Source: Octopus sinensis
Taxonomy: Eukaryota
NCBI RefSeq assembly: GCF_006345805.1
Contig: NC_043001.1
Span: 48,422,001-48,486,000 of the forward strand
DNA length: 64,000 nucleotides
Direction: 5' to 3'
Shown here in pieces: positions 973 through 51,420 of this stretch. The position numbers were made by a program, and so were the translations under genes. The notes under the pieces were generated by a model, which was not told the origin of the DNA, did no database searches, and saw only the letters and a list, made by a program, of their open reading frames with translations. Within the stretch, counting starts at the first letter, position 1. Every line of letters starts with the position of its first letter.

Positions 973-989
973 CGTTGGTTTCAAGTACC
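973..989. repeat. Left copy of 17-bp target-site duplication cgttggtttcaagtacc
   Basis: Identical to 18458-18474; the two bracket the split SINE, the Tx1 LINE and the array. Confidence 0.9.
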
Positions 990-1172
990 TATTTCTTTAT
1001 TACCCACAAGGGGCTAAACACAGAGGGGACAAACAAGGACAGACATAGGTATTAAGTCGATTACATCGACCCCAGTGCGTAACTGGTACTTAATATATCT
1101 ACCCCGAAAGGATGAAAGGCAAAATCGACCTCGGCGGAATTTGAACTCACAACGTAACGCAGACGAAATACG
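990..1172 (-). mobile_element. Body and Tx1-like tail of a family A SINE whose head lies at 18434-18457
   Basis: Minus strand reads gtatttcgtctgcgttacgttgtgagttcaaattccgccgaggtcga...gccccttgtgggtaataaagaaata, collinear with the intact copies starting at 21168 and 50486. Confidence 0.9.
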
Positions 1173-1418
1173 AATTTCTTTATTGCCCACCGGGGGCCAA
1201 ACATAGATATGGACAGTACAACTGATGGGATCAGTGAATCGATATGATTTTACATAAATGTGACATCAAAAATAAAATACAATACATAAAAATCGAATGG
1301 AATACACAGTACAAAAACAAAAGAAATGAAGCGATGATCAAGTTACGCTCCGATCCCACAAGCCCCGATCTACCGCTGATACCTTTTTATTTTCTCTTTT
1401 TTTTTTCCTCGTATATTT

Positions 1419-4400
1419 TCACACGGTTCCTTGCACGCACAACACTCGTGCAACATACTTCCATCTCTTTTGGAACGTACACTCTGACAGACACCTCTTC
1501 TCCAGCCACAGTTTCCTTTTCAAATGAAAAGAAAAAAAGGATCGTAAATTGTCACCAGAGATAAAGTTGCCTGTCTTAATTCCTTATATCCTAGTATTCC
1601 ATACAGCCTCTTTTGCTATTGCTACAACCGTGAGAAAACAATTCTTACCTTCGTTCGTTAGAACTCCCGGTGGGTCAATTTTTATAATTGACTCAGTCGA
1701 CAGCCGTACTCTTCCTTCGCCGGACAACAGATGTTCAGCATAAGCCCACATTTCAGTTATCTCCGGACACTGAACAATAGCGTGAGGGACGGTTTCCCTG
1801 TCCCCACCGCATCTTGGACAGGTCGGCGACTGACGTTTACCATGTCTTGCGAGCTTATCCCAAACGGGCAAGGCACCTCTGTAGCATTGCCAGGTTAAGG
1901 ACTTTTGGAAGTTGTCCAACGTTCTCAACCCGAATGTACGATGAAACAAGCTGTCCAGTTGAATAAATCCGAGACCTAGAGTCGACCCCAGGCCATCGTC
2001 GCATTCAGACTCTACCAACCCACTATATAAAATCCGTGTGGAACCCCCACCGCTGGCGTTGCCCGAGCGCCGGAACAGCAAGAGGGCCTTACGGCACTCT
2101 TTATGCCACTCACTCGACCTCGGTCTACGAGAACACCAGGCTTCCTGTTCGCAAAAACTCTTGAACTCAGGGAACATTTGTCTGGCCAGCGGAGACCACA
2201 CCCCTTCACTATCCAGGAGAATCCAGAGGTGCCTCAACCTCAACGCATGTCTGCGCATCATTAACCAAGGCATCCCTAAACCTCCATTTAAAGGCTTTTG
2301 ACAGCAGACAGAGCGTTTCACAAGTGGCGACCTGCCCTTCCACAAAAAGCGAAAGAGCTGTCTCTCCAACCTGATCAACCACGAATCCGGACAGGGCACG
2401 ACAGTCAGGCGGTAGGTAATGACCGATGCGATAAACACATTGGCCACTTCCGCCCTCCCTTTCAGGGATAGCCACCGCCAAGACCAAGTCTTGACTACTG
2501 CAGCCACCCTGCTCAATACTCCGTCCAGTTCTTCTCTATCTGGAGGCCTGGTCCAAACCAGACTCCCAGCAACTTAACCGGTCCCTCCGTCCAGCGCCTA
2601 ACAACACTGTCTGAAGGCATCGACTTGCCAACCCAGGTGCCGAGCTGCAAGCCGACCGACTTTTCCCGGTTAATCTTTGCTCCTGCTACCTCCTCGTAAG
2701 CCTCAATAGTCTTACCTACTTCACGTAGGCGTACCACTGTGGTTACACTGATAGTGATATCATCCGCGAAAGCCGTAACAAACTCCTCTAGTCCTGGTTC
2801 TCTCGGGATGCCACTCAACCTTTGCAGTAATGGCTCGAGAGCCATCACATACAAAAGTGGTGAAAGCGGACATCCTTGACGAACCGAGCGTCTGATGCAG
2901 AACGGCTTCGAAAGGAAACCGTTCACCCGAACTATCGAGTCAATGTTGTGGTACAAAGCGATAAACCACCTGAGGAAGCCAAGGCCCAGGCCAAACCGCG
3001 CAAGTACAGTCGCTAGGTATCGATGGTCAACCCTATCAAAAGCTTTAGACTGGTCCAAATGCACCAAAGCCCCACCTTTGCCAGATTTATTACCAAACCT
3101 CTCTATGGTATAGCGAATAAGATGGAGGGTATCCTGAATGGTTCTGCCTGGGATGGCACATGTCTGTGCCTCCCCGACTATACCATTCGCGACACGCGCC
3201 AACCTTTTTGCTAGAACCTTGGCCAAAATCTTCACTTCTGCGTTTAACAGAGTGATGGGCCTGAAATTCTCTAGAACGTCCCCCTTGTCCGGGTCCTTTC
3301 TGACCAACGTCACTACTCCCCGGCGCACAGATCTGGGGATAAACCCATTCTGTTTCCAGTTCGCGTACACGTCAGTCAGTAGTTGCCCGAACAAGTCTGG
3401 CATACATTTATACAGCTCGTACGGAAGACCATCAAGTCCCGGTGACTTACCCGCTTTACAATCGGCCAAAGCCTCCATCACCTCCTCAAGTGTGATTGGC
3501 CCTTCGCAAGACTCCGCATCCGACCCCGAGAGGCACGGCAGCCCGGTAAGAAAGTCCTCGAGGGCTCTCCCACCACCAGGACCGCCGTCACCCCCGAACA
3601 GCTGGGCGAAGTACTCCCGAAAGACCTCACACATTTTCTCGGGTTCGTTTATCAAGACACCATTTTGATTCGTCAAAGACCGAATAGAGGAACTATTTCC
3701 TTGCCGAGCTTCCACCACTCGGGCCCATCCAGCGGCTTTGATTCCTTCACTTCCCATTGCACGTAACTTAGCTCTGGTAATACTTCCCATGTGGTGGGCT
3801 TCAAGATGCTGGTTTAACTCCAGTCTTTTCACCCTCGCTTGGTCTGTATTACCAGTCCTCCAGGCTTCTTCTAGTTCCTTAACTAGACCATCTCCTATTT
3901 TACGTCCCTTCTTAGCTAAACTTATGCTAAACCTAATAGACTCATATTTGATGGCTCTTTTTAGGGCGTACCACCATTTGTTATTAATGATGGTACCTGT
4001 TAATGCCCTCTGTATTAACATCTTGATCCGCTTTCTGTACTCCTCAATCGCCAAAAGGGACGTATTGAGTTTCCAGTAGCCAGATCCCTGTCTATGCAAC
4101 TTATCTACCGTCAGTTTACAGGTAACCATCTTGTGGTCACTGTAGCTGACTAGAAAAAACTGTGGACACTCAACTATGGACTTATCTTTTTCTCTAATTA
4201 AAATCCTATCTAGATATGTTCTGGTAGACCCGTCACTATTTGACCACGTCCACTGTGGAGTGTTCGGGTGCTCCAACCTATATGGATCTGCTAGCTGAAA
4301 TTGACTTAGCAGATCCCGAAAGCCTGTGTTACATTTTCTGTTCATGTTCGAGTTTGAGCCAACACAATCTGTGTGTGCTGCACATATTGTATTAGAGTCT

Positions 4401-4818
4401 CCTAACACTACTAGTGAATGCGACGTGGCTAGGAACTTTCCTAGGCCACGAAAATATTCAGTTTGCGGGCCAATAATGTTTGGTGCATAAATAGCGACCA
4501 GCCTGATTGTCTTGCCACAACTGAATGTCAAGTCGAGAACGACCAGCCTGCCTTCTGGGTCAGAAAAAACCAACTTTTTCTCGGCTACCCGGTTTCTTTT
4601 TAGTAGGACCAACACCCCACCCCCACCTCCGCCCGACTCGGAGAAACGTATTTCTCGTAGCCGTTCAGGAGGGGGAGCAGATCTCTTGGCCCCTTCACCC
4701 GGGTTTCCGTTGCAACAATTACATCCAAATTTCTCGACCTGATGTCATTCAGAAAGCGTCCTTGCTTCCAGCTTGACAACAGGCCATGAACATTTAAACA
4801 ACCAATGTGAATAGCCAT
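1419..4818 (-). pseudogene. Tx1 ORF2: APE endonuclease + reverse transcriptase + C-terminal zinc finger, disrupted
   Basis: Motifs GCLNVHGL, VLGDSN, LDRIL, SDH (APE); KSPGLDG, FRPITLLN, LDQSKAFDRV, RQGCPLSP, FADD (RT); CPRC..ETVPH..C. Frameshifts near 4610 and 2515 and a premature TAA at 1584-1586; the frame then continues to a TGA at 1419-1421. Confidence 0.92.
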
Positions 4819-6168
4819 CACTTACCTGTTTAATTAGGATTGTCCGGTGGAGGGGGACCCTCCACCTTTTTTTATCCAGGGTCGGAGGTGGACGGTCTTG
4901 GGAAATAGATTTGTCAAAATCCCGTCTCACCACCGACACAGAATTATCAGGTGGAGGGGGAATCTCCACCTTTTCCTTTTCTCGCGGGATCGGAGCTGGT
5001 AATCCATGAAATATCGACTTGTTAAAATCTAATCTCAATGAAGATACAGTCTTTCTGTACTTATTTTGTAGAATTCTATAAGTCTTATTTGAGACTTCAT
5101 ATATGTCGTAATTGATAAATTCCTCTGAAAGGTTATCAATTTTTTTACAGTCTTTATGAGTTGAATGTCTCTCATGAGCTCAGTATCTTTAGTGTATACG
5201 GCTATTATGTTTTTCTTCTTTTTCTCTTCTGGCAGTCTTTTTTGGTCGTTGTTCTGTAGTAGTCGCCGCTCTCGGCTGGGTTGCTGGTTGTATTTTTCTT
5301 TTGTTTGTGTTTTTTTTTCTCATCTGTTTCTTCTTTATCTTCTTCCTCTTTGTCTTTTTTCTCCTCTTCCTCCTCTTCTTCATTTTCCTTGCAGTTCCTT
5401 CGAATGTGGCCTAATTGACCACATAAAAAACATCGAGGTTTTCGGCCCTCAACAAACACCACGAGGTTCTCCTCCCCTACCTCAATTGTCTCAGGAATTG
5501 TTTGAATTATTTTAGGGTCCGCTTGAATGAGAAGATTAATTGTTTTACCATCCCAGCGTGGGTTTTCCGTAGCGGTAGCCTGGAGGAGAGTAATTTTTTC
5601 TACCTCTTTGATTAGGACTGCCGCCAACAACCACATAGGTTCGACCTCTGGCGGGACCCTTGTAATTTTTATTCGCGACGTCCTCATCCCCATATAATAT
5701 GGTATTAACTCTACGTCGTTCGTTTTCAACGTTTCCACTGAGTTCTTGTGTGCTATTTCTTTATTGGTGAACCTTACTTCCACCGTTCCGAATTTTTTTC
5801 CTCTTCTCAGAAATACTACGTCGCCCAATATTGGCTTTAAGCACTTTTCTATTTTCTCTTCTGACATTCTTTCAATTTTTCTATTTTGTAGACAATATGT
5901 TTTGAAAATTATTGTTTTTTGCTTTTCTTCCTGTAATAACTTTTGCGGAGGTTCAATTTTCACACTGTTGTCATTTATTTCCATCATTTTGCTGTATTTC
6001 ATAATTTCGCTTTTATTCGTCGACAGTATCTGGGTTCCACCCCCAGCAGCCAACGCAAATTTTTTTCCATTTTTTGGTTCTATCTGGATGCTAGGCACAT
6101 CAATTATTCTCTTCGACACAATGCCTTTGTTCTCTGGCAAAGTCGGAAACTCTTCTGGTGAAAGTTCT
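4819..6168 (-). pseudogene. Tx1 ORF1 (gag-like, CCHC knuckle), N-terminally truncated and frameshifted
   Basis: ORF 5205..6140 has CFLCGQLGHIRRNC and the blocks FLRRGKKFGTVEVRF and VFVEGRKPRC, homologous to the array ORF; Lys/Glu/Pro-rich tail continues in other frames. Confidence 0.85.
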
Positions 6169-6317
6169 TATTTCTTTATTACCCACTAGGGGCGACACAG
6201 AAAGGGACACTAAGAAACATGGGGACATATAACATTATAATTAAACTTTATGAACATGAATTGTTAAACGAAAAAATGATTAAATGAAAGCGATACCAAC
6301 GGCCCCGTCCGTCAGCA

Positions 6318-7732
6318 TCACTTACCTGTCCTTTGTTTTTCATAGTCACTTGAATGTTCCTTGCCAATACGAACAAATTCCATATCCATTCTTACTCCGA
6401 AATACTCATCCATATTTTCCACGAATTCATCGCTCATTCTTATATCTTTCACCTCCCAATTCTCGCATTCACACATCACCATAAAGTCACCTATGTTCTT
6501 CTTTTCAATCACAGCATACCTAGTCTCACCAACATCATACCATTTATACTCTTCCATTAGACTTTTAACTTCTTTCTGTTCAGTCATAGTACAAATGTAC
6601 GGCCTGATATCGATTTCAATCTCTTGTGTGTGTGTATTCTTTTTTTTCTTTTGTTTTCTTGTTGGGGGGGAGCGGGTGGGTTCAATGTCTGCATGGATAG
6701 GGTGGGACTCAGAGGGCGTGGGTGGTTTTGGGGTGGATTGGAGTTCCATATTATTTTCTTTTCCACGTATTCTTCTCTTCCTCTTACTTCCAGCTTCCTT
6801 CCATTTCTGTGTATTCTCTTCCTCTGTTTCCTTCTCCTCTGGTTTCTGCTTCTCTCTCTCTGGTTCGGGATCCATTTCTTTCCCTGGGGGAGGGCAGAAG
6901 GCTCTTATGTGACCCCTCAGGCCACACTTGTAACAACGTGGAGCCCTGCCCTCCACCCACACTCTCATGATCACTTCTCCCAGTCTGATGCTTTCCGTCA
7001 GGTCCACCAGTACCTCGGTCTCTGCCTGTACGTTCAGCTCCACTGTTACGCCTCTCCAGCCCTCGGACTTAACCGAGGCATGGAGAATATCCACTTCGTC
7101 CTCGTGGCCGCTGATCACAGCCGCCACAATCCATTCTGCCTCCACGTTTGGTGGCACTCCCTCCACCCTTATTCGTGTAATCCTCCTGTTTAAATACGTA
7201 GGTAACAGTGTTACCTTTTCCGACTTCACCGCCTTCGCTGCCATCTTCCTCGCTGCAGATTCACTTTTAAAATGCACAACTACGGTCCCATACTTGGATC
7301 CTCGAGTCAGAAAATTTATTTCCTCCTCAGTTCTTCGCAGGGCTTCCTCTATCCATTCCATGGTTACAACTTCTACCCTCTTCCTTTCGTTTGCGAACAC
7401 CCTGTAAAAATGGTCCTCTTATCATACCATTCTTTTCTCCTGGGTGTCGGTGATAGTTCCACCTCACCGCTTTCCTTTTTCATGTGTTTCTGGTAACTTG
7501 GTAGTTTGGCCAAGTCGACCCCTTTCTCTTCCGCCTTCTTGGTTACACCGGCATAAGTATAACTCAGCTTCTTTTCCAAATTCCTCGCTGCCATTTCTAG
7601 CTCCTTCTCAGACGTAGGCGAGTCTGATAAAGACTCGAAAACTCCAGCCTTTTCCTCCATCAGCTTCACTGCAATTGCCTGTTCCAGTTCCTCATCTGTC
7701 GTGGACAAGTCTGTTAGAGACTCATAGTCCAT
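6318..7732 (-). CDS. Array unit 1 ORF: Tx1-type ORF1/gag-like protein, about 471 aa once one frameshift near 7407 is corrected
   Basis: MDYESL...CYKCGLRGHIRAFC...RTGK*; 1415 nt with one base missing relative to the other copies. Confidence 0.8.
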
Positions 7733-8075
7733 TTCCTTCTGTCTGACAGACCGAAAACGGCCGCCAAAACAGAAAAAAGTTTAACGCGCTGAACGAGCGA
7801 AACGCGAAACCGCGTCAACGCCGTTCAGAATTTCCACAACAACAACAACGCTTTTTGTTCTTTTTTACCGAATTTTCAGGAGCCGAAAAAAACACAACCG
7901 ACGTCAAACGAAGTGCTAACGTTTCTTATTTCTTTATTACCCACTAGGGGCGACACAGAAAGGGACACTAAGAAACATGGGGACATATAACATTATAATT
8001 AAACTTTATGAACATGAATTGTTAAACGAAAAAATGATTAAATGAAAGCGATACCAACGGCCCCGTCCGTCAGCA

Positions 8076-9490
8076 TCACTTACCTGTCCTTTGTTTTTCA
8101 TAGTCACTTGAATGTTCTTTGCCAATACGAACAAATTCCATATCCATTCTTACTCCGAAATACTCATCCATATTTTCCACGAATTCATCACTCATTCTTA
8201 TATCTTTCACCTCCCAATTCTCCCTTTCACACCTCACCATAAAGTCACCTATGTTCTTCTTTTCAATCACAGCATACCTAGTCTCACCAACATCATACCA
8301 TTTATACTCTTCCATTAGACTTTTAACTTCTTTCTGTTCAGTCATAGTACAAATGTACGGCCTGATATCGATTTCAATCTCTTGTGTGTTGTATTCTTTT
8401 TTTTTTTTTTGTTTCTTGTTGGGGGGGAGCGGGTGGGTTCAATGTCTGCATGGATAGGGTGGGACTCAGAGGGCGTGGGTGGTTTTGGGGTGGATTGGAG
8501 TTCCATATTATTTTCTTTTCCACGTATTCTTCTCTTCCTCTTACTTCCAGCTTCCTTCCATTTCTGTGTATTCTCTTCCTCTGTTTCCTTCTCCTCTGGT
8601 TTCTGCTTCTCTCTCTCTGGTTCGGGATCCATTTCTTTCCCTGGGGGAGGGCAGAAGGCTCTTATGTGACCCCTCAGGCCACACTTGTAACAACGTGGAG
8701 CCCTGCCCTCCACCCACACTCTCATGATCACTTCTCCCAGTCTGATGCTTTCCGTCAGGTCCACCAGTACCTCGGTCTCTGCCTGTACGTTCAGCTCCAC
8801 TGTTACGCCTCTCCAGCCCTCGGACTTAACCGAGGCATGGAGAATATCCACTTCGTCCTCGTGGCCGCTGATCACAGCCGCCACAATCCATTCTGCCTCC
8901 ACGTTTGGTGGCACTCCCTCCACCCTTATTCGTGTAATCCTCCTGTTTAAATACGTAGGTAACAGTGTTACCTTTTCCGACTTCACCGCCTTCGCTGCCA
9001 TCTTCCTCGCTGCAGATTCACTTTTAAAATGCACAACTACGGTCCCATACTTGGATCCTCGAGTCAGAAAATTTATTTCCTCCTCAGTTCTTCGCAGGGC
9101 TTCCTCTATCCATTCCATGGTTACAACTTCTACCCTCTTCCTTTCGTTTGCGAACACCCTGTAAACAATGGTCCTCTTATCATACCATTCTTTTCTCCTG
9201 GGTGTCGGTGATAGTTCCACCTCACCGCTTTCCTTTTTCATGTGTTTCTGGTAACTTGGTAGCTTGGCCAAGTCGACCCCTTTCTCTTCCGCCTTCTTGG
9301 TTACACCGGCATAAGTATAACTCAGCTTCTTTTCCAAATTCCTCGCTGCCATTTCTAGCTCCTTCTCAGACGTAGGCGAGTCTGATAAAGACTCGAAAAC
9401 TCCAGCCTTTTCCTCCATCAGCTTCATTGCAATTGCCTGTTCCAGTTCCTCATCTGTCGTGGACAAGTCTGTTAGAGACTCATAGTCCAT
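8076..9490 (-). CDS. Array unit 2 ORF1-like protein (frameshift in T-rich tract near 8400)
   Basis: 382-aa and 89-aa ORF pieces join to give the consensus protein. Confidence 0.8.
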
Positions 9491-9832
9491 TTCCTTCTGT
9501 CTGACAGACCGAAAACGGCCGCCAAAACAGAAAAAAGTTTAACGCGCTGAACGAGCGAAACGCGAAACCGCGTCAACGCCGTTCAGAATTTCCACACAAC
9601 AACAACGCTTTTTGTTCTTTTTTACCGAATTTTCAGGAGCCGAAAAAAACACAACCGACGTCAAACGAAGTGCTAACGTTTCTTATTTCTTTATTACCCA
9701 CTAGGGGCGACACAGAAAGGGACACTAAGAAACATGGGGACATATAACATTATAATTAAACTTTATGAACATGAATTGTTAAACGAAAAAATGATTAAAT
9801 GAAAGCGATACCAACGGCCCCGTCCGTCAGCA

Positions 9833-11244
9833 TCACTTACCTGTCCTTTGTTTTTCATAGTCACTTGAATGTTCCTTGCCAATACGAACAATTCCATATC
9901 CATTCTTACTCCGAAATACTCATCCATATTTTCCACGAATTCATCGCTCATTCTTATATCTTTCACCTCCCAATTCTTCCTTTCACACCTCCCCATAAAC
10001 TCACCTATGTTCTTCTTTTCAATCACAGCATACCTAGTCTCACCAACATCATACCATTTATACTCTTCCATTAGACTTTTAACTTCTTTCTGTTCAGTCA
10101 TAGTACAAATGTACATCCTGATATCGTTTTCAATCTCTTGTGTGTGTGTATTCTTTTTTTTCTTTTGTTTTCTTGTTGGGGGGGAGCGGGTGGGTTCAAT
10201 GTCTGCATGGGTAGGGTGGGACTCAGAGGGCGTGGGTGGTTTTGGGGTGGATTGGAGTTCCATATTGTTTTCTTTTCCACGTATTCTTCTCTTCCTCTTA
10301 CTTCCAGCTTCCTTCCATTTCTGTGTATTCTCTTCCTCTGTTTCCTTCTCCTCTGGTTTCTGCTTCTCTCTCTCTGGTTCGGGATCCATTTCTTTCCCTG
10401 GGGGAGGGCAGAAGGCTCTTATGTGACCCCTCAGGCCACACTTGTAACAACGTGGAGCCCTGCCCTCCACCCACACTCTCATGATCACTTCTCCCAGTCT
10501 GATGCTTTCCGTCAGGTCCACCAGTACCTCGGTCTCTGCCTGTACGTTCAGCTCCACTGTTACGCCTCTCCAGCCCTCGGACTTAACCGAGGCATGGAGA
10601 ATATCCACTTCGTCCTCGTGGCCGCTGATCACAGCCGCCACAATCCATTCTGCCTCCACGTTTGGTGGCACTCCCTCCACCCTTATTCGTGTAATCCTCC
10701 TGTTTAAATACGTAGGTAACAGTGTTACCTTTTCCGACTTCACCGCCTTCGCCGCCATCTTCCTCGCTGCAGATTCACTTTTAAATGCACAACTACGGTC
10801 CCATACTTGGATCCTCGAGTCAGAAAATTTATTTCCTCCTCAGTTCTTCGCAGGGCTTCCTCTATCCATTCCATGGTTACAACTTCTACCCTCTTCCTTT
10901 CGTTTGCGAAACCCTGTAAACAATGGTCCTCTTATCATACCATTCTTTTCTCCTGGGTGTCGGTGATAGTTCCACCTCACCGCTTTCCTTTTTCATGTGT
11001 TCTGGTAACTTGGTAGTTTGGCCAAGTCGACCCCTTTCTCTTCCGCCTTCTTGGTTACACCGGCATAAGTATAACTCAGCTTCTTTTCCAAATTCCTCGC
11101 TGCCATTTCTAGCTCCTTCTCAGACGTAGGCGAGTCTGATAAAGACTCGAAAACTCCAGCCTTTTCCTCCATCAGCTTCATTGCAATTGCCTGTTCCAGT
11201 TCCTCATCTGTCGTGGACAAGTCTGTTAGAGACTCATAGTCCAT
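9833..11244 (-). pseudogene. Array unit 3 ORF1-like, several 1-bp indels
   Basis: 83-aa and 331-aa fragments of the consensus protein. Confidence 0.75.
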
Positions 11245-11587
11245 TTCCTTCTGTCTGACAGACCGAAAACGGCCGCCAAAACAGAAAAAAGTTTAACGCG
11301 CTGAACGAGCGAAACGCGAAACCGCGTCAACGCCGTTCAGAATTTCCACAACAACAACAACGCTTTTTGTTCTTTTTTACCGAATTTTCAGGAGCCGAAA
11401 AAAACACAACCGACGTCAAACGAAGTGCTAACGTTTCTTATTTCTTTATTACCCACTAGGGGCGACACAGAAAGGGACACTAAGAAACATGGGGACATAT
11501 AACATTATAATTAAACTTTATGAACATGAATTGTTAAACGAAAAAATGATTAAATGAAAGCGATACCAACGGCCCCGTCCGTCAGCA

Positions 11588-12996
11588 TCACTTACCTGTC
11601 CTTTGTTTTTCATAGTCACTTGAATGTTCCTTGCCAATACGAACAAATTCCATATCCATTCTTACTCCGAAATACTCATCCATATTTTCCACGAATTCAT
11701 CGCTCATTCTTATATCTTTCACCTCCCAATTCTCGCATTCACACATCACCATAAAGTCACCTATGTTCTTCTTTTCAATCACAGCATACCTAGTCTCACC
11801 AACATCATACCATTTATACTCTTCCATTAGACTTTTAACTTCTTTCTGTTCAGTCATAGTACAAATGTACGGCCTGATATCGATTTCAATCTCTTGTGTG
11901 TGTGTATTCTTTTTTTCTTTTGTTTTCTTGTTGGGGGGGAGCGGGTGGGTTCAATGTCTGCATGGATAGGGTGGGACTCAGAGGGCGTGGGTGGTTTTGG
12001 GGTGGATTGGAGTTCCATATTATTTTCTTTTCCACGTATTCTTCTCTTCCTCTTACTTCCAGCTTCCTTCCATTTCTGTGTATTCTCTTCCTCTGTTTCC
12101 TTCTCCTCTGGTTTCTGCTTCTCTCTCTCTGGTTCGGGATCCATTTCTTTCCCTGGGGGAGGGCAGAAGGCTCTTATGTGACCCCTCAGGCCACACTTGT
12201 AACAACGTGGAGCCCTGCCCTCCACCCACACTCTCATGATCACTTCTCCCAGTCTGATGCTTTCCGTCAGGTCCACCAGCACCTCGGTCTCCGCCTGCAC
12301 GTTCAGCTCCACTGTTACGCCTCTCCAGCCCTCGGACTCAACCGAGGCATGGAGAATATCCACTTCGTCCTCGTGGCCGCTGATCACAGCCGCCACAATC
12401 CATTCTGCCTCCACGCTTGGTGGCACTCCCTCCACCCTCATTCGTGCAATCCTCCTGTTCAAATACGTAGGCAACAGTGTTACCTTTTCCGACTTCACCG
12501 CCCTCGCCGCCATCTTCCTCGCTGCAGATTCACTTTCAAAGTGCACAACTACGGTCCCGTACTTGGATCCTCGAGTCAGAAAATTTATTTCCTCCTCAGT
12601 TCCTCGCAGGGCCTCCTCCATCCATTCCATGGATACAACTTCTACCCTCTTCCCTTCGTTTGCGCACACCCTGCAAACAATGGTCCTCCCATCATACCAT
12701 TCCTCTCTCCTGGGTGTCGGTGATAGCTCCACCTCACCGCCTTCCCCTTTCATGTGCTTCTGGCAACTTGGTAGCTTGGCCAAGTCGACCCCTTTCTCCT
12801 CCGCCTTCTTGGTCACACCGGCACAAGTATAACTCAGCCTCCTTTCCAATTTCCCTGCTGCCATTTCCAGCTCCTTCTCAGACAAGTCTGATAAAGACTC
12901 GAAAACTCCAGCCCCTTCCTCCATCAGCCTCACTGCAATTGCCTGTTCCAGTTCCCCATCCGTCGTGGACAAGTCTGTTAGAGACTCATAGTCCAT
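11588..12996 (-). pseudogene. Array unit 4 ORF1-like, A>G hypermutated
   Basis: 380-aa and 89-aa pieces with many K>R, K>E, E>G, Y>C changes. Confidence 0.8.
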
Positions 12997-13339
12997 TTCC
13001 TTCTGTCTGACAGACCGAAAACGGCCGCCAAAACAGAAAAAAGTTTAACGCGCTGAACGAGCGAAACGCGAAACCGCGTCAACGCCGTTCAGAATTTCCA
13101 CAACAACAACAACGCTTTTTGTTCTTTTTTACCGAATTTTCAGGAGCCGAAAAAAACACAACCGACGTCAAACGAAGTGCTAACGTTTCTTATTTCTTTA
13201 TTACCCACTAGGGGCGACACAGAAAGGGACACTAAGAAACATGGGGACATATAACATTATAATTAAACTTTATGAACATGAATTGTTAAACGAAAAAATG
13301 ATTAAATGAAAGCGATACCAACGGCCCCGTCCGTCAGCA

Positions 13340-14749
13340 TCACTTACCTGTCCTTTGTTTTTCATAGTCACTTGAATGTTCTTTGCCAATACGAATAAAT
13401 TCCATATCCATTCTTACTCCGAAATACTCATCCATATTTTCCACGAATTCATCGCTCATTCTTATATCTTTCACCTCCCAATTCTCGCATTCACACTCCC
13501 ATAAAGTCACCTATGTTCTTCTTTTCAATCACAGCATACCTAGTCTCACCAACATCATACCATTTATACTCTTCCATTAGACTTTTAACTCTTCTGTTCA
13601 GTCATAGTACAAATGTACGGCCTGATATCGATTTCAATCTCTTGTGTGTGTGTATTCTTTTTTTTCTTTTGTTTTCTTGTTGGGGGGGAGCGGGTGGGTT
13701 CAATGTCTGCATGGATAGGGTGGGACTCAGAGGGCGTGGGTGGTTTTGGGGTGGATTGGAGTTCCATATTATTTTCTTTTCCACGTATTCTTCTCTTCCT
13801 CTTACTTCCAGCTTCCTTCCATTTCTGTGTATTCTCTTCCTCTGTTTCCTTCTCCTCTGGTTTCTGCTTCTCTCTCTCTGGTTCGGGATCCATTTCTTTC
13901 CCTGGGGGAGGGCAGAAGGCTCTTATGTGACCCCTCAGGCCACACTTGTAACAACGTGGAGCCCTGCCCTCCACCCACACTCTCATGATCACTTCTCCCA
14001 GTCTGATGCTTTCCGTCAGGTCCACCAGTACCTCGGTCTCTGCCTGTACGTTCAGCTCCACTGTTACGCCTCTCCAGCCCTCGGACTTAACCGAGGCATG
14101 GAGAATATCCACTTCGTCCTCGTGGCCGCTGATCACAGCCGCCACAATCCATTCTGCCTCCACGTTTGGTGGCACTCCCTCCACCCTTATTCGTGTAATC
14201 CTCCTGTTTAAATACGTAGGTAACAGTGTTACCTTTTCCGACTTCACCGCCTTCGCTGCCATCTTCCTCGCTGCAGATTCACTTTTAAAATGCACAACTA
14301 CGGTCCCATACTTGGATCCTCGAGTCAGAAAATTTATTTCCTCCTCAGTTCTTCGCAGGGCTTCCTCTATCCATTCCATGGTTACAACTTCTACCCTCTT
14401 CCTTTCGTTTGCGAACACCCTGTAAACAATGGTCCTCTTATCATACCATTCTTTTCTCCTGGGTGTCGGTGATAGTTCCACCTCACCGCTTTCCTTTTTC
14501 ATGTGTTTCTGGTAACTTGGTAGCTTGGCCAAGTCGACCCCTTCTCTTCCGCCTTCTTGGTTACACCGGCATAAGTATAACTCAGCTTCTTTTCCAATTC
14601 CTCGCTGCCATTTCTAGCTCCTTCTCAGACGTAGGCGAGTCTGATAAAGACTCGAAAACTCCAGCCTTTTCCTCCATCAGCTTCATTGCAATTGCCTGTT
14701 CCAGTTCCTCATCTGTCGTGGACAAGTCTGTTAGAGACTCATAGTCCAT
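13340..14749 (-). pseudogene. Array unit 5 ORF1-like, several 1-bp indels
   Basis: 315-aa central fragment matches the consensus protein. Confidence 0.75.
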
Positions 14750-15090
14750 TTCCTTCTGTCTGACAGACCGAAAACGGCCGCCAAAACAGAAAAAAGTTTA
14801 ACGCGCTGAACGAGCGAAACGCGAAACCGCGTCAACGCCGTTCAGAATTTCCACAACAACAACAACGCTTTTTGTTCTTTTTTACCGAATTTTCAGGAGC
14901 CGAAAAAAACACAACCGACGTCAAACGAAGTGCTAACGTTTCTTATTTCTTTATTACCCACTAGGGGCGACACAGAAAGGGACACTAAGAAACATGGGGA
15001 CATAACATTATAATTAAACTTTATGAACATGAATTGTTAAACGAAAAAATGATTAAATGAAAGCGATACCAACGGCCCCGTCCGTCAGCA

Positions 15091-16503
15091 TCACTTACCT
15101 GTCCTTTGTTTTTCATAGTCACTTGAATGTTCCTTGCCAATACGAACAAATTCCATATCCATTCTTACTCCGAAATACTCATCCATATTTTCCACGAATT
15201 CATCGCTCATTCTTATATCTTTCACCTCCCAATTCTTCCTTTCACACCTCCCCATAAACTCACCTATGTTCTTCTTTTCAATCACAGCATACCTAGTCTC
15301 ACCAACATCATACCATTTATACTCTTCCATTAGACTTTTAACTTCTTTCTGTTCAGTCATAGTACAAATGTACATCCTGATATCGTTTTCAATCTCTTGT
15401 GTGTGTGTATTCTTTTTTTCTTTTGTTTTCTTGTTGGGGGGGAGCGGGTGGGTTCAATGTCTGCATGGGTAGGGTGGGACTCAGAGGGCGTGGGTGGGTT
15501 TGGGGTGGATTGGAGTTCCATATTGTTTCTTTTCCACGTATTCTTCTCTTCCTCTTACTTCCAGCTTCCTTCCATTTCTGTGTATTCTCTTCCTCTGTTT
15601 CCTTCTCCTCTGGTTTCTGCTTCTCTCTCTCTGGTTCGGGATCCATTTCTTTCCCTGGGGGAGGGCAGAAGGCTCTTATGTGACCCCTCAGGCCACACTT
15701 GTAACAACGTGGAGCCCTGCCCTCCACCCACACTCTCATGATCACTTCTCCCAGTCTGATGCTTTCCGTCAGGTCCACCAGTACCTCGGTCTCTGCCTGT
15801 ACGTTCAGCTCCACTGTTACGCCTCTCCAGCCCTCGGACTTAACCGAGGCATGGAGAATATCCACTTCGTCCTCGTGGCCGCTGATCACAGCCGCCACAA
15901 TCCATTCTGCCTCCACGTTTGGTGGCACTCCCTCCACCTTATTCGTGTAATCCTCCTGTTTAAATACGTAGGTAACAGTGTTACCTTTTCCGACTTCACC
16001 GCCTTCGCCGCCATCTTCCTCGCTGCAGATTCACTTTTAAAATGCACAACTACGGTCCCATACTTGGATCCTCGAGTCAGAAAATTTATTTCCTCCTCAG
16101 TTCTTCGCAGGGCTTCCTCTATCCATTCCATGGTTACAACTTCTACCCTCTTCCTTTCGTTTGCGAACACCCTGTAAACAATGGTCCTCTTATCATACCA
16201 TTCTTTTCTCCTGGGTGTCGGTGATAGTTCCACCTCACCGCTTTCCTTTTTCATGTGTTTCTGGTAACTTGGTAGCTTGGCCAAGTCGACCCCTTTCTCT
16301 TCCGCCTTCTTGGTTACACCGGCATAAGTATAACTCAGCTTCTTTTCCAAATTCCTCGCTGCCATTTCTAGCTCCTTCTCAGACGTAGGCGAGTCTGATA
16401 AAGACTCGAAAACTCCAGCCTTTTCCTCCATCAGCTTCACTGCAATTGCCTGTTCCAGTTCCTCATCTGTCGTGGACAAGTCTGTTAGAGACTCATAGTC
16501 CAT
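15091..16503 (-). pseudogene. Array unit 6 ORF1-like, several 1-bp indels
   Basis: 205-aa, 182-aa and 94-aa fragments. Confidence 0.75.
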
Positions 16504-16843
16504 TTCCTTCTGTCTGACAGACCGAAAACGGCCGCCAAAACAGAAAAAAGTTTAACGCGCTGAACGAGCGAAACGCGAAACCGCGTCAACGCCGTTCAGA
16601 ATTTCCACAACAACAACAACGTTTGTTGTTTTTTTACCGAATTTTCAGGAGCCGAAAAAAACACAACCGACGTCAAACGAAGTGCTAACGTTCTTATTTC
16701 TTTATTACCCACTAGGGGCGACACAGAAAGGGACACTAAGAAACATGGGGACATATAACATTATAATTAAACTTTATGAACATGAATTGTTAAACGAAAA
16801 AATGATTAAATGAAAGCGATACCAACGGCCCCGTCCGTCAGCA

Positions 16844-18253
16844 TCACTTACCTGTCCTTTGTTTTTCATAGTCACTTGAATGTTCCTTGCCAATACGAAC
16901 AAATTCCATATCCATTCTTACTCCGAAATACTCATCCATTTTTCCACGAATTCATCGCTCATTCTTATATCTTTCACCTCCCAATTCTCGCATTCACATC
17001 ACCATAAAGTCACCTATGTTCTTCTTTTCAATCACAGCATACCTAGTCTCACCAACATCATACCATTTATACTCTTCCATTAGACTTTTAACTTCTTTCT
17101 GTTCAGTCATAGTACAAATGTACGGCCTGATATCGATTTCAATCTCTTGTGTGTGTGTATTCTTTTTTTTCTTGTTTTCTTGTTGGGGGGGAGCGGGTGG
17201 GTTCAATGTCTGCATGGATAGGGTGGGACTCAGAGGCGTGGGTGGTTTTGGGGTGGATTGGAGTTCCATATTATTTTCTTTTCCACGTATTCTTCTCTTC
17301 CTCTTACTTCCAGCTTCCTTCCATTTCTGTGTATTCTCTTCCTCTGTTTCCTTCTCCTCTGGTTTCTGCTTCTCTCTCTCTGGTTCGGGATCCATTTCTT
17401 TCCCTGGGGGAGGGCAGAAGGCTCTTATGTGACCCCTCAGGCCACACTTGTAACAACGTGGAGCCCTGCCCTCCACCCACACTCTCATGATCACTTCTCC
17501 CAGTCTGATGCTTTCCGTCAGGTCCACCAGTACCTCGGTCTCTGCCTGTACGTTCAGCTCCACTGCTACGCCTCTCCAGCCCTCGGACCCAACCGAGGCA
17601 TGGAGAATATCCACCTCGTCCTCGTGGCCGCCGATCACAGCCGCCACAATCCATTCCGCCTCCACGCCTGGTGGCACTCCCTCCACCCCCACTCGTGCAA
17701 TCCTCCTGTTCAAATACGCAGGCAACAGCGCTACCCCCCCCGACCTCACCGCCCTCGCCGCCATCCCCCTCGCTGCAGATTCACCTTTAAAGTGCACAAC
17801 CACGGTCCCGCACTTGGATCCTCGAGTCAGAAAATTCACTTCCTCCTCAGTTCCTCGCAGGGCCTCCTCCATCCATTCCATGGACACAACCTCCACCCTC
17901 CTCCCTTCGCTCGCGCACACCCTGCAAACAATGGTCCTCCCATCACACCATTCCCCTCTCCTGGGTGTCGGTGACAGTTCCACCTCACCGCCCTCCCCCC
18001 TCATGTGCTTCTGGCAACTTGGCAGCTTGGCCAAGTCGACCCCCCTCTCCTCCGCCTTCCTGGCTACACCGGCACAAGTATAACTCAGCTTCCCCTCCAA
18101 ACTCCTCGCTGCCATTTCCAGCTCCTTCTCAGACGTAGGCGAGTCTGATAAAGACTCGAAAACTCCAGCCTTTTCCTCCATCAGCTTCATTGCAATTGCC
18201 TGTTCCAGTTCCTCATCTGTCGTGGACAAGTCTGTTAGAGACTCATAGTCCAT
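16844..18253 (-). pseudogene. Array unit 7 ORF1-like, heavily A>G hypermutated
   Basis: 419-aa ORF with K>R/G, E>G, Y>C, T>A, I>V changes concentrated in about 17566-18119. Confidence 0.8.
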
Positions 18254-18299
18254 TTCCTTCTGTCTGACAGACCGAAAACGGCCGCCAAAACAGAAAAAA

Positions 18300-18433
18300 G
18301 TTTAACGCGCTGAACGAGCGAAACGCGAAACCGCGTCAACGCCGTTCAGAATTTCCACAACAACAACAACGCTTTTTGTTCTTTTTTACCGAATTTTCAG
18401 GAGCCGAAAAAAACACAACCGACGTCAAACGAA
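18300..18433 (-). promoter_or_regulatory. CpG-rich 5' UTR of the array unit (candidate internal promoter; present in all seven units)
   Basis: Dense CpGs (cggcgttgacgcggtttcgcgtttcgctcg) and a CRE-like tgacgtcg upstream of the ATG. Promoter function is inferred from L1-group biology. Confidence 0.35.
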
Positions 18434-18457
18434 GTGCTAACGTTTCTGCCATCTCGC
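18434..18457 (-). mobile_element. 5' head (A-box region) of the split family A SINE
   Basis: Minus strand gcgagatggcagaaacgttagcac versus intact gcgagctggcagaaacgttagcac at about 50491. Confidence 0.85.
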
Positions 18458-18474
18458 CGTTGGTTTCAAGTACC
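18458..18474. repeat. Right copy of the 17-bp TSD
   Basis: Identical to 973-989. Confidence 0.9.
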
Positions 18475-21167: not shown

Positions 21168-21755
21168 AGCTGGAGCTGGCAGAAACGTTAGCACGCCGAG
21201 CGAAATGCGTAGCCGTGTTTCGTCTGCCGTTACGTTCTGAGTTCAAATTCCGCCGAGGTCGACTTTGCCTTTCAACCTTTCGGGGTCAATAAATTCAGTA
21301 CCAGTTATGCACTGGGGTCGATGTAATCGACTTAATCCGTTTGTCTGTCCTTGTTTGTCCCTCTGTGTTTAACCCCTTGTGGGTAGTAAAATAGTAAAGA
21401 AATAGAAATAGGTATTTCGTCTGCCGCTACGTTCTGAGTTCAAATTCCGCCGAGGTCGACTTTGCGTTTCATCCTTTCGGGGTCGATTAGATAAGTACCA
21501 GTTACGCACTGGGGTCGATATAATCGACTTAATCCGTTTGTTTATCCTTGTTTATCCCCTGTGTGTTTAGCCCCTTGTGGGTAGTAAAGAAATAGGTATT
21601 TCGTCTGTCTTTACGTTCTGAGTTCAAATTCCGCCGAGGTCGACTTTACCTTTAGGAGTCGATAAATTAAGTACCAGTTGCGTACTGATTTCTATCTAAT
21701 CGACTGGCGCTCTCTCGAAAAATTTCGGGCCTTCTGCTTAGAGTAGAAAAGAATT
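21168..21755 (+). mobile_element. Family A SINE trimer
   Basis: One full unit plus two headless units joined at gaaata|ggtatttcgtctg (21410/21411 and 21594/21595). Confidence 0.88.
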
Positions 21756-30450: not shown

Positions 30451-30762
30451 TATATATTCATATGTATGCTGAGATACTCATTCACGATACTTTCTGGCAT
30501 GGATTAAAGTTGTCATGCACGCACGCACAAACACACACACACACACTCACACACACATACACACACACACACACACACTCACATACCTATATTCACGCAG
30601 ACGAAAGATGCATGTACACACATATGACGACCGGAGACAACCTAGACACAAGCACGCACAGCCATCAGCTTATATCCTGTTGTGGCAAGAGCACGACACT
30701 CCCTGACGAGAATAGACAGGACCACTACATATAAATTGTAACAGTCTGACGTAATCGGCAGT

Positions 30763-31771
30763 GGACGGTGAGCGGGTGTGGTCTCCGTTCGTTGATGAGA
30801 TATTTCCCAGGTTCACCTCTTTTGGTGAACTGGAATGCCGGATCAGGCGTAGACGAAGGCTAGGAGCTTAGCAAACAGAGTATCGATAGGCATTCGTGCT
30901 TCTCTCCCGAACGAGCAATGCCGGCGGAGGGGATACCACCTCGGCGTACTATAGAGGGCTGGTAGAGGGTAAGTGTGATGACGGCCTAGGGGAGACTCTG
31001 GGTTTCTATGAAAGTCATCTTGCCAACCTGCATCGAAGGACTTTCTGCCCGGGACCTATGGACAACTTCCAGAGGTCCCTGGCTTGGCTGTGCTTCCGAA
31101 GTGCTTTGCCAGTTTGGGATAAACTCACGAGGCACGGCATCACGGCTTCGCCTACGTGTTCACGTTGCGGGCAGAGCAACGAAATTGTTCTGCATGCAAT
31201 CGTACAGTTTCCAAGTCTCTCGGACATGTGGGTTTCTACCGAACGTGTACTGTCACAAGTGGGGAGAGTACAGATGTCAGCCGAATCGATTATCAAGATT
31301 GTTCCGCCGTCTCCTCTAAAAGGAGAAAAGAAATTCTGCTTTCTAGTCGAAATAAATATAGCGAAAGAGATGATAGGGAAGACTCGTGGAAGAAGTGTCG
31401 CATGAGGCACTTTCGTCTCCAGGCATGTTTTGGTTAACCTCTTTTTATATCACCTAATGGGGAAAGCAGGTCTGGAGAAGAAATCCCTGACGTCAAAAAA
31501 GTATGAAAAAAAGATGGGAGAAAGTAGCTCGAATATTGGCTATGTAAGTGCCTAATGAAGCAGAGTAAAAAAAAATAAAGGACGAAGTAAACGTTTCGAC
31601 GCAGGAATGTGGTTGGTGGGGTCAACCCATTCCGCGTCCATTCATTTTCTTTTCATTTTCATCAGAAGCTATAATGTATTTATTCATATATGTAATATTC
31701 GAGAAGTCCCCGACGCCATTTGTCCCGTGAATTGTCGCCTCTTTGTTTAGCCCTTGTGGTTTGAAAAAAAA
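30763..31771 (+). mobile_element. 3' fragment of a second Tx1-family LINE inserted in the Gypsy 5' LTR
   Basis: ORF 30896..31405 aligns to the ORF2 C-terminus at 1584-2100 (DNFQRSLAW, ALPVWDKL, ESIIKI); ends gtttagcccttgtggtttgaaaaaaaa. Confidence 0.85.
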
Positions 31772-32029
31772 TCATCGAATTTGATCTTTGAAGTCTAGGT
31801 ACAGTTTACAGTCCGAGTTAGTGTGTTGGAAGCATTGATTGTTGGTTCGTTACGTGTTTGTTACTGCCGCTGTTTCTATTTTGCATTGTTATAACACTGT
31901 TACAGTGTATTTCTTTATCTATCATCGACAATATCAACCGTACTACGATATTGGAAGCTTAAAGATATAACATCTAGCAACGAGCGTATTTGACAGTTTG
32001 TGCGTCATGCACAGTATTAAGTTATGGAG

Positions 32030-35508: not shown

Positions 35509-36308
35509 ATTTCTTTGTTCCTTTGGAAATCGAAATCTCAAAAGGGGAGATATTGTGGCGAGAGTACGACACTCCCTGACGAGAATAGACGGGACCACTA
35601 CATATTAATAGTAGTGGTCTGACGTAATCAGCAGAGCAGTTCCTAGTTTGGTCTTCGAAGTCCAGGTACAGTTTACAGTTCGAGTTAGTGTGTTAGAAAT
35701 ATTAATTTTTGTTTTGTAAAAGATTGTTTGTTACTGCCGCTGTTTCTATTTTGTATTGTTATAACACTGTTACAGTGTATTCTTTATCTATCGTCAACAA
35801 CATCAACTGTACAACGATACTGGAGGCTTAAGGATATAACATATCCGTAATGTAAAAACGGAACTGTGATAAAGAGTTATATTTAACTTATATATATACG
35901 CACACATGCAACTCTGCTTTCGCCACCAGTAAAAGTTCCAAGTAGGAAGGCACCATCCTTCAAAGCTCTTCGTTGCATGTCTAGAAAATGGTCTTTAAAA
36001 ACACTCGACCAGACAGGTGCGTGAACAACAACGGCGGATGACTAACACAACTCCGATTCGCAATAATATTGTAAAATTCGCCGAACACTACAAATCAGCT
36101 GCAGGTCGCGCAGACAGAGCTGGACACTCATAGTTCATGAGTAGCTTGAAAATGAATGCTTGGAAGTAAAATACATGCAGCTCGAAAACAACATGAGGCT
36201 GAATAGAGATTGGAAGTGAGAAAATCGAGGATTACGTTTACTTGGGACACAGAGAATATGTACCGAGACATGGAAGATGAAATCTCGAGCAGAATATACT
36301 TATATATA

Positions 36309-50269: not shown

Positions 50270-51420
50270 CGTGATGTGAAGACAATTTGAAAGCTCGCTA
50301 CCCAATTAAATTTCGTGTTAGACTGGGCAAAGACGCTACAGAAAATTATGAAATACTCCAGACTACCGATGAATTAACTTGTATGAGCTGAGCATGTTTT
50401 ACGCTGACACGAGTTGTCCGACAAGGCAATCCGCTGGGAAGGTCGTGGTGATCCCCTTTCTAGACAGTAAGTGTATCACTACGGAAGGCGGCGAGCTGGC
50501 AGAAACGTTAGCACGCCGGGCGAAATGCGTAGCCGTATTTCGTCTACCGTTACGTTCTGAGTTCAAATTCCGCCGAGGTCGACTTTGCCTTTCATCCTTT
50601 CGGGGTCAATAAATTAAGTACTAGTTACGCACTAGGGTCGATATAATCGACTTAATCCGTTTGTCTGTCCTTGTTTGTCCTCTATGTGTTTAGCCCCTTG
50701 TGTGTAGTAAAGAAATAGGTATTTCGTCTGCCGCTACGTTCTGAGTTCAAATTCCGCCGAGGTCGACTTTGCCTTTCATCCTTTCGGGGTCGATTAAATA
50801 AGTACCAGTTACGCACTGGGGTCGATATAATCGACTTAATCCGTTTGTCTGTCCTTGTTTGTCTTCTCTGTGTGTAGCCCCTTGTGGGCAGTAAAGAAAT
50901 AAGTAAGGATATCATCTAGATTCACTGGGTTTCCTCTGACCAAATAGTTTAGAAACGGCACTTTGTGAAGATTTTGATTGAGTTCAGGAAGAGATTTCGT
51001 CGAAAAAGGCCAGAGCTCTTCCATTCGGCTTGTTGGCACATGCACCAATACAATGCACCAGACCACAGCTCGATCCTGGTAACCAACTACTTGACTTAGA
51101 AGGGCTCCAAAACTCCCTCACCCTCCCTACAGTCCAGATCTTTCCCCCTTTGACTTTTGGTTGTTCCCCAGGTTGAAAAAGAACTTAAGGGGCAGTTGTT
51201 TTGATGACATTGAGAAGATGAAGGAGGCTGTGACAAGGGTCCTGGACACCTTCACTTCAGAAGACTTCCATGGGGGTCTTCACGAAGTGGCTGGAGTTCT
51301 ACACCAAGTGCACTGAAGCCAGGGGTGCCCAACTTTGATGGAAATTAGAATTTTGTACTTCTTTGAGTGGAATAGATGTCTTTCCTGAAAATGTCTCAAA
51401 ACTTCTGGAGAGCACTTTGT
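50270..51420 (+). mobile_element. Internally deleted mariner transposon remnant interrupted by a SINE dimer
   Basis: IKFRVRLGKDATE near 50305; HQYNAPDH and YSPDLSPFDFWLFPRLKKNLRG at about 51040-51190. Confidence 0.8.
50486..50901 (+). mobile_element. Family A SINE dimer with Tx1-like tails
   Basis: Junction aaagaaata|ggtatttcgtctg at 50717/50718; degenerate TSD agtaag..tatca on both flanks. Confidence 0.88.

What the first reader, a model, noticed from the sequence alone, without database searches (positions are those of the whole stretch)
12280..12961. Second hyper-edited tract in unit 4, overlapping but not nested with unit 7
Roughly 40 T>C changes by eye. Many sites are shared with unit 7, but each copy has private ones (cactttcaaag vs cacctttaaag; gatagctcc vs gacagttcc), and the tract limits differ. 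Units 4 and 7 also share non-editing variants absent from the other five (aaagtgcac, cccg, tgga, gcgcac). This suggests two separately edited transcripts from one source locus that is not among the unedited units here. No inverted copy of the unit lies in this window, so the dsRNA partner would be antisense or trans-derived (inference).
Basis: partly seen in the sequence, partly recalled or inferred. Interest (0 to 1): 0.72.

Follow-up and report, generated by a model that had tools for sequence, protein, structure and literature searches.

The report
RNA-edited retrotransposon copies fixed in DNA
Two of seven tandem copies of a jumping gene in this animal genome carry dozens of A-to-G changes with the fingerprint of the RNA-editing enzyme ADAR, so two separately edited RNA molecules appear to have been copied back into the DNA, making RNA editing a source of inherited mutation.

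Summary
Observation confirmed. Window 6168-18447 is seven ~1.75-kb units of an ORF1-only non-LTR retrotransposon (minus strand). They are followed by a 5'-truncated L1/Tx1-type LINE, all inside a SINE with a 17-bp target-site duplication. Unit 4 has 40 T>C (37 unambiguous) at 12280-12961; unit 7 has 69 (68). These are A>G on the coding strand, with strong depletion of 5' G (1/82 and 2/63 sites), the ADAR motif. 25 sites are shared, 12 and 43 are private, so the tracts are not nested. Unit 4's rate is the same inside and outside the overlap, favouring two separately edited RNAs over a pre-edited ancestor. A 121-base contig from a public DNA run matches unit 4 exactly over 11 edits, so mis-polishing is unlikely. 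'One source locus' is only partly supported: unit 4 has its own non-editing changes, and two of the four markers are common in the family. A 13-base SINE-derived spacer between units suggests serial site-specific insertion. The dsRNA partner was not found. I found no report of ADAR-hyper-edited LINE copies fixed in a genome; retroviral A>G and APOBEC G>A parallels exist.

The parts
12280..12961 (-). Hyper-edited tract of unit 4: 40 A>G on the coding strand (37 unambiguous; 25 shared with unit 7, 12 private)
   Evidence: exact 121-base contig at 12674-12794 in run X1
17566..18119 (-). Hyper-edited tract of unit 7: 69 A>G (68 unambiguous; 43 private)
12541..12665 (.). Four non-editing markers shared by units 4 and 7 only (12541, 12559, 12633, 12665); subfamily markers
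12850..12884 (.). Non-editing changes private to unit 4 (two substitutions and a 6-base in-frame gap)
11438..13189 (-). Unit 4: ORF1-only non-LTR element; open frame 11854-13044 (396 aa stop to stop) despite the edits
6168..7925 (-). Unit 1, unedited; its tail joins the truncated LINE directly
7926..9682 (-). Unit 2, unedited; ORF1 frame 8342-9538 with CCHC knuckle, 31% identical to the LINE's ORF1
9683..11437 (-). Unit 3, unedited, haplotype close to unit 6
13190..14942 (-). Unit 5, unedited
14943..16693 (-). Unit 6, unedited, haplotype close to unit 3
16694..18446 (-). Unit 7, the 5'-most unit, including the 13-base spacer at 18434-18446
18434..18459 (-). Head of the host SINE (25 of 26 bases match the intact SINE head at 50489-50514); its last 13 bases recur between all units (12 of them at the unit 7/6 junction): probable target-site duplication
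1172..6167 (-). 5'-truncated L1/Tx1-type LINE: ORF1 5205-6167, ORF2 from about 4818 (endonuclease, reverse transcriptase, zf-RVT; read in separate frames), 3' tail shared with SINE and unit
990..1171 (-). Body and tail of the host SINE (about 90% identical to other monomers in the window)
973..989 (.). 17-bp target-site duplication, left copy
18458..18474 (.). 17-bp target-site duplication, right copy; the word occurs only these two times in the window

Best explanation
Units 4 and 7 are retrocopies of two different RNA molecules of an ORF1-only, non-autonomous L1/Tx1-type element. Each RNA was base-paired over about 550-700 nt of ORF1 with a partner encoded outside this window, was hyper-edited by ADAR (A to I), and was then reverse-transcribed by a partner LINE's ORF2 protein, which fixed each I as G in germline DNA. 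The two RNAs came from two close members (or alleles) of one subfamily, not necessarily one locus. The array grew by repeated site-specific insertion into the head of one SINE copy, each event leaving the 13-base duplication between units, so each unit is one RNA and unit 7 is the youngest. Shown: the tracts, their strand, the ADAR motif, non-nesting, the element anatomy, the spacers and duplication, presence of part of the unit 4 haplotype in a DNA run. Inferred: the enzyme, the dsRNA partner, the donor loci, the order and mode of insertion, germline origin.
For: 5' G depletion: 1 of 82 against 36 of 141 in unit 4 (P 3e-7), 2 of 63 against 66 of 120 in unit 7 (P 1e-13); unit 4's private sites follow it too (1 of 12 with 5' G); motif as in PMC3197674 and PMC5625713. 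Changes are A>G on the strand that encodes ORF1. Unit 4 rate 29 of 181 inside the overlap and 8 of 40 outside (P 0.64), whereas an inherited-edits model leaves 4 of 156 against 8 of 40 (P 0.0004; 0.0045 without the two end sites). Shared markers lie next to unit-7-private edits (alignment columns 1123/1124, 1197/1198), which excludes simple conversion between the two. Exact 121-base contig with 11 unit-4 edits including private 12727, depth 85.7, in run X1; unedited marker-bearing contig in run X14. Spacer equals SINE head bases at the six unit-unit junctions; other tail-to-head joints with other spacers occur in runs X1 and X2; precedent for Tx1-mobilised tandem insertions sandwiching a duplication in PMC4494074.
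Against: Sharing in the overlap (25 of 29) exceeds the context-matched expectation of 19.6 (5' base only, P 0.007) or 21.6 (both neighbours, P 0.05), which leaves room for some inherited edits. No dsRNA partner was seen. Unit 1 joins the LINE without the 13-base spacer and about 20 SINE bases are missing, so serial insertion needs an extra deletion. Look-alike pairs 3/6 and 4/7 are both three units apart (chance 26 of 210 arrangements), as a block duplication would give. Run X1 shows no residual depth for unit 4's distal private sites 12915, 12929, 12956, holds only 0.40 of the tract's words, and may be the assembly's own sample. 3' G preference is not significant (P 0.057, 0.10).
Confidence: 0.7

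Rival explanations
1. Serial editing: the 25 shared G's and four markers were inherited from a donor that was itself an edited retrocopy, and each RNA then gained private edits. This would mean edited copies stay transcribed and mobile.
For: 25 of 29 shared against 19.6-21.6 expected; the four markers lie only inside the shared tract; run X2, another study and organism label, holds 0.30 of the tract's words against a 0.113 baseline.
Against: Needs unit 4's second round to avoid the region where unit 7 gained 43 edits (4 of 156 against 8 of 40). Markers occur without edits (X14 record 14) and at far higher depth than edits. Shared edits show no excess of synonymous changes (7 synonymous, 18 not; background 54 and 87).
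Confidence: 0.12
2. Same editing, different array origin: SINE, LINE and seven unit RNAs were joined in one target-primed reverse transcription by template jumping, all under the single 17-bp duplication.
For: One outer duplication flanks everything; all three element types end in the same tail; unit 1 meets the LINE with only a 3-base match to the spacer. Template jumping and head-to-tail products are described for R2 proteins (PMC11371274).
Against: The outer duplication abuts a SINE head on one side and a SINE tail on the other, as for an older interrupted SINE (about 90% identity to other monomers against 98.5-99.3% between unedited units). The spacer is SINE-head sequence, constant here and different in other joints.
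Confidence: 0.1
3. Multi-unit blocks: units 7-6-5 and 4-3-2 are two copies of a three-unit donor (two read-through RNAs, perhaps from two alleles), or a DNA duplication later changed by conversion.
For: Pairs 4/7 and 3/6 are three units apart; units 2 and 5 share one private base (column 193).
Against: Unit 5 is closer to unit 1 (4 substitutions) than to unit 2 (7). The spacing has a 12% chance. A DNA duplication alone cannot give 55 private ADAR-type changes. A read-through RNA is still two separately edited transcripts.
Confidence: 0.05
4. Assembly artefact: units 4 and 7 are one edited sequence polished differently with reads from edited and unedited copies.
For: Units carry 1-8 gap columns each, typical of noisy long reads, and units 2 and 5 look mosaic at columns 297-319.
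Against: Unit 4 has 12 private ADAR-context edits, 8 outside unit 7's tract, that no mix of window units can supply; exact contig in run X1 includes a private site.
Confidence: 0.03

Closest known systems
ADAR hyper-editing of repeat-derived dsRNA (PMC3197674, PMC5625713; passages read)
   Same: Dense A>G clusters on one strand in a repeat, 5' G depletion, tract of several hundred bases.
   Different: Those are RNA-versus-DNA differences; here the changes are in genomic DNA. The partner duplex is not identified.
APOBEC-edited retroelements in genomes (PMC2873906, passages read)
   Same: A deaminase's signature fixed in a retroelement copy through reverse transcription.
   Different: APOBEC acts on cDNA and gives G>A on the coding strand, mostly in LTR elements; here A>G, RNA-level, non-LTR.
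A>G hypermutated retroviral proviruses (recalled; no paper read)
   Same: ADAR-edited RNA reverse-transcribed and integrated.
   Different: Virus infections, mostly somatic or in culture; here an endogenous non-LTR element with no LTR, twice in one array.
ORF1-bearing bipartite non-autonomous LINEs: HAL1, HeT-A, Ag-Sponge (PMC5786205, passages read)
   Same: Keeps ORF1 and the LINE 3' tail, lacks ORF2 after the stop-start overlap; forms head-to-tail arrays as HeT-A does (recalled).
   Different: Interstitial, inside a SINE; structured tail shared with a SINE rather than poly(A); ORF1 only 31% identical to the neighbouring LINE's.
Tx1-clade target-specific elements and SINEU-3 tandem insertions (PMC4494074, section 14 and passages read)
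   Same: Insertion into another repeat; tandem copies with the duplication sandwiched between them.
   Different: Target is a SINE head; seven copies of a protein-coding unit; Tx1 membership here is inferred, not tested by phylogeny.

Membership tests
ADAR hyper-edited sequence | Cluster of A>G on the transcribed strand, far above other changes | tested here: met
   40 of 47 substitutions in unit 4's tract and 69 of 73 in unit 7's; ORF1 strand
ADAR hyper-edited sequence | Depletion of G 5' of the edited A | tested here: met
   1 of 82 and 2 of 63; P 3e-7 and 1e-13
ADAR hyper-edited sequence | 3' neighbour preference | tested here: inconclusive
   3' G 18 of 76 and 27 of 58, P 0.057 and 0.10; 3' U lowest. 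PMC5625713 reports A rather than G for invertebrates
ADAR hyper-edited sequence | Long dsRNA covering the tract | tested here: inconclusive
   No inverted copy in the window; unit RNA folds with no helix over 14 bp; partner elsewhere not searchable, no genome held
ADAR hyper-edited sequence | Same sites seen edited in RNA of the donor | not testable with these tools
   Only contigs were served; the one RNA-guess run laid (X14) gave an unedited contig
L1/Tx1 group non-LTR retrotransposon (the LINE at 1172-6167) | ORF2 with APE endonuclease, reverse transcriptase and C-terminal zinc motif; no LTR | tested here: met
   Pfam Exo_endo_phos, RVT_1, zf-RVT; best solved relative LINE-1 ORF2p, E 1e-51 against 2e-20 for R2; no terminal direct repeat in self-comparison
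Tx1 clade | Position in the RT tree with named Tx1 elements | not tested
   No named Tx1 reference among 37 and 30 homologs; top named hits are fish proteins with CCHC and ZCCHC3-type RNA-binding domains; their link to Tx1 is recalled, 0 papers found
Tx1 clade | Target-sequence preference | tested here: inconclusive
   One locus only; constant SINE-derived spacer here, other spacers in public runs
ORF1-bearing non-autonomous LINE (HAL1/HeT-A/Ag-Sponge type) | ORF1 homologous to a LINE ORF1, ORF2 absent, LINE-type 3' tail kept | tested here: met
   31% identity over 258 aa, E 2e-43; same stop-start motif then about 130 bases to the tail; tail alike in unit, LINE and SINE
HAL1 proper | Descent from L1-clade ORF1 with poly(A) end (feature recalled) | tested here: not met
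   No poly(A) at any of seven tails; clade not resolved
Endogenous retrovirus or LTR element | LTRs, integrase, protease | tested here: not met
   None in Pfam scan of the five frames; anatomy is non-LTR

The most novel reading that the evidence does not exclude
In this animal (probably a coleoid cephalopod; recalled SINE likeness, not tested) ADAR hyper-editing is a recurring heritable mutagen of an active non-LTR family: inosine-rich RNAs with 17-37% of A's changed over 550-700 nt still pass target-primed reverse transcription in the germline. Site-specific arrays then act as ordered, single-molecule records of germline RNA editing, and edited copies with open ORF1 frames may seed new subfamilies.
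Probability: 0.35. Interest if true: 0.8.

Novelty: new variant of a known kind. Interest (0 to 1): 0.58.

Why it matters
Whether ADAR mutates non-LTR retrotransposons heritably is open: a 2016 review says the role of editing in Alu evolution and suppression by mutation was not determined (PMC4982230), and ADAR1 restricted human L1 without detectable editing of over 2.5 kb of L1 RNA (PMC5224506). Two independent fixed tracts in one young array show that heavily edited RNA can be retrotransposed. They give a genome-only test of how often this happens, and warn that such copies mimic RNA editing when RNA reads are mapped to unedited family members, and inflate repeat ages.

Tried and rejected
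No whole genome is held, so the donor and the dsRNA partner could not be searched. Protein search with unit 2 ORF1: none of 3963 candidates at E 0.001. Earlier findings: nothing by place, words or sequence. Rfam on 1-22000 gave one sub-threshold hit on a CA microsatellite; ARAGORN found no tRNA, so a tRNA origin of the SINE head is not shown. Intramolecular fold-back as the ADAR substrate: no helix over 14 bp, window z-scores from -2.4 to 2.0, rejected. An antisense exon setting the tract limits: a YAG|G lies 9 bases before the first edit, but there are 8 such sites per unit, not evidence. Conversion between units 4 and 7: rejected by adjacent shared and private sites. No RNA holder listed on record. 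Runs with word shares under 0.2 equal the 0.113-0.14 baseline and say nothing on edited copies; 4 of 24 listed runs were laid. ESM Atlas gave CCHC-type eukaryotic clusters at 0.92-0.93 and a ZCCHC3-domain cluster at 0.90, a lead only; direct comparison of ORF1 with one such protein was not significant. Paper searches for prior reports of genomic ADAR-edited non-LTR copies listed none by title or abstract; the library lacks most subscription papers. Supplements were not read; repeat libraries such as that of PMC13282606 may already hold this family.

Full report
What the region is. Self-comparison shows seven head-to-tail units at 6168-18447. On the minus strand each encodes an ORF1-type protein with a CCHC knuckle, 31% identical over 258 aa to ORF1 of the element next to it. 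That element (1172-6167) is a 5'-truncated non-LTR retrotransposon with endonuclease, reverse transcriptase and zf-RVT domains; its closest solved relative is LINE-1 ORF2p. Unit and LINE share the ORF1 stop/ORF2 start motif, after which the unit runs straight to the tail, so it is an ORF1-only internal-deletion type, the class described in PMC5786205 (passages). Unit, LINE and a SINE end in the same tail. The whole block sits between a SINE head (18434-18459) and a SINE body (990-1171) and is flanked by a 17-bp duplication at 973-989 and 18458-18474 that occurs nowhere else in the window. The host is an animal; a coleoid cephalopod is my recollection from the SINE's likeness, not a tool result.

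The observation. Against the majority of the five unedited units, unit 4 has 40 T>C and 7 other substitutions between 12280 and 12961, unit 7 has 69 and 4 between 17566 and 18119. I dropped three T>C in unit 4 and one in unit 7 (columns variable in unedited units, or beside another change), leaving 37 and 68. One dropped column, 12508, is indeed a common variant in run X1. The five other units have 0-2 T>C each. 25 sites are shared, 12 are private to unit 4 (4 inside the overlap, 8 outside) and 43 to unit 7. The four shared non-editing markers are real. No inverted copy lies in the window.

The enzyme. The changes are A>G on the coding strand. A's with a 5' G are almost never hit: 1 of 82 against 36 of 141 in unit 4, 2 of 63 against 66 of 120 in unit 7. 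This is the ADAR motif as stated in PMC3197674 and PMC5625713 (passages). 3' G is favoured but not significantly (P 0.057, 0.10). Since the change is on the RNA-sense strand, editing came before reverse transcription (inference).

Is unit 4 real? Unedited units account for 76 of 671 words of the tract (0.113). Of 24 listed runs, four hold 0.20-0.40. I laid four runs (X1, X2, X4, X14), all contigs, on unit 4. X1 has a 121-base contig, depth 85.7, identical to unit 4 at 12674-12794, covering 11 edits including the private 12727; every other unit differs there by 10-12 bases. X1 may be the assembly's own sample, so it checks the assembly, not the population. Against this, X1 shows no residual depth at the distal private sites 12915, 12929 and 12956; contigs drop rare variants, and X4 has a residual depth of about 29 at 12914, 12915 and 12929 (my subtraction, table 3). 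Family contigs reach depths about a hundredfold higher, so the family is high-copy; summed depths are not copy numbers. Two X1 contigs (depth 87.8 and 108.4) match the residual depth at private sites 12537 and 12839 yet differ from unit 4 by 22 and 15 bases, which fits no unit in the window. They may be further edited copies; their letters were not shown.

One RNA or two? In the overlap 25 of unit 4's 29 sites are also edited in unit 7. Chance gives 10.9; matching the 5' base gives 19.6 (P 0.007), both neighbours 21.6 (P 0.05). Most sharing is thus context, with a residue. If the shared sites were inherited, unit 4's own round would be 4 of 156 inside and 8 of 40 outside (P 0.0004), while unit 7 gained 43 inside. 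If independent, unit 4 is uniform: 29 of 181 and 8 of 40 (P 0.64). Markers at columns 1123 and 1197 are shared while the next bases are edited in unit 7 only, which excludes conversion between the two. Two separately edited molecules is the best reading.

One source locus? Unit 4 has changes at 12850 and 12856 and a 6-base in-frame gap that unit 7 lacks, though unit 7 is edited on both sides of the first two. In X1, 31% and 64% of summed depth at markers 12633 and 12665 does not carry the unedited units' letter, against 0-3.4% at edit sites. X14 record 14 (617 bases) keeps both markers and has T at all listed edit sites; the other two markers were not among the rows shown.

The dsRNA partner. 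Not found. The unit RNA has no helix over 14 bp. The tracts cover the middle of ORF1 and spare the 3' 840 and 5' 230 bases, so an ordinary 5'-truncated inverted copy does not fit; an internal fragment or an antisense transcript at the donor does (inference). That the two edited units are exactly the two marker-bearing ones suggests a partner tied to those donors (1 of 21 pairings, my count).

How the array formed. At the six unit-unit junctions the tail is followed by the same 13 bases (one base short at unit 7/6), which are the last 13 of the SINE head. This is what repeated insertion at one site leaves, as for SINEU-3 mobilised by Tx1 elements (PMC4494074 section 14). Other tail-to-head joints with other spacers are in X1 and X2. 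The weak point is the unit 1/LINE junction, which has only 3 matching bases and lacks about 20 SINE bases. Template jumping in one event (precedent PMC11371274, passages) is the main rival; a three-unit block is a weaker one. All three keep two RNAs.

What is known. Hyper-editing of repeat RNA is general (PMC5625713) and broad in coleoids (PMC9068888, passages); L1-Tx1 families are recently active in Octopus vulgaris (PMC13282606, passages). Genome-fixed deaminase tracts are described for APOBEC (PMC2873906, passages). A>G hypermutated retroviral DNA is recalled, not read. For non-LTR elements, PMC4982230 calls the mutational role of ADAR undetermined and PMC5224506 found no L1 editing (passages). 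Five searches listed no report of ADAR-hyper-edited LINE copies fixed in a genome; I saw listings and abstract starts only, and the library misses most subscription papers.

Verdict. Real, correctly placed, and largely correctly read. A new variant of a known kind: ADAR hyper-editing written back into the genome by a non-LTR element, twice in one array. Confidence 0.7, interest 0.58.

Noticed in passing
window 973-18474: A 17.5-kb composite (SINE head, seven units, truncated LINE, SINE body) under one 17-bp duplication; three element types share one 3' tail, so this LINE group probably mobilises the SINE.
   Followed up: partly
window 21173-21705 and 50485-50905: Tandem SINE monomers restart at the same SINE base after each tail, the same base at which the LINE tail joins at 1172: a second preferred insertion or joining point in the SINE.
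   Followed up: partly
window 30762-31309 (+): Older fragment, about 65% identical to the 3' part of the LINE's ORF2, in the opposite orientation.
   Followed up: no
unit columns 297-319 (window 11734-11756 in unit 4): Units 1, 2, 3 and 5 show four different combinations of five variants within 25 bases: recombination among family members or polishing noise.
   Followed up: partly
unit column 1503 (window 12933 in unit 4): T>C present in units 1, 4 and 6, in an ADAR-compatible context; a single edit or a common variant.
   Followed up: no
X1 records 3 and 7; X4 records 29-31: Low-depth contigs that differ from unit 4 by more bases than the unedited units do, most matching no window unit by count; possibly further hyper-edited copies or diverged subfamilies.
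   Followed up: partly
window 31780-31973 and 35647-35842: A 197-base direct repeat at 86% identity, not examined.
   Followed up: no
window 32495-32926 (+): 143-aa open frame that reads like a decayed retroelement fragment; not searched.
   Followed up: no
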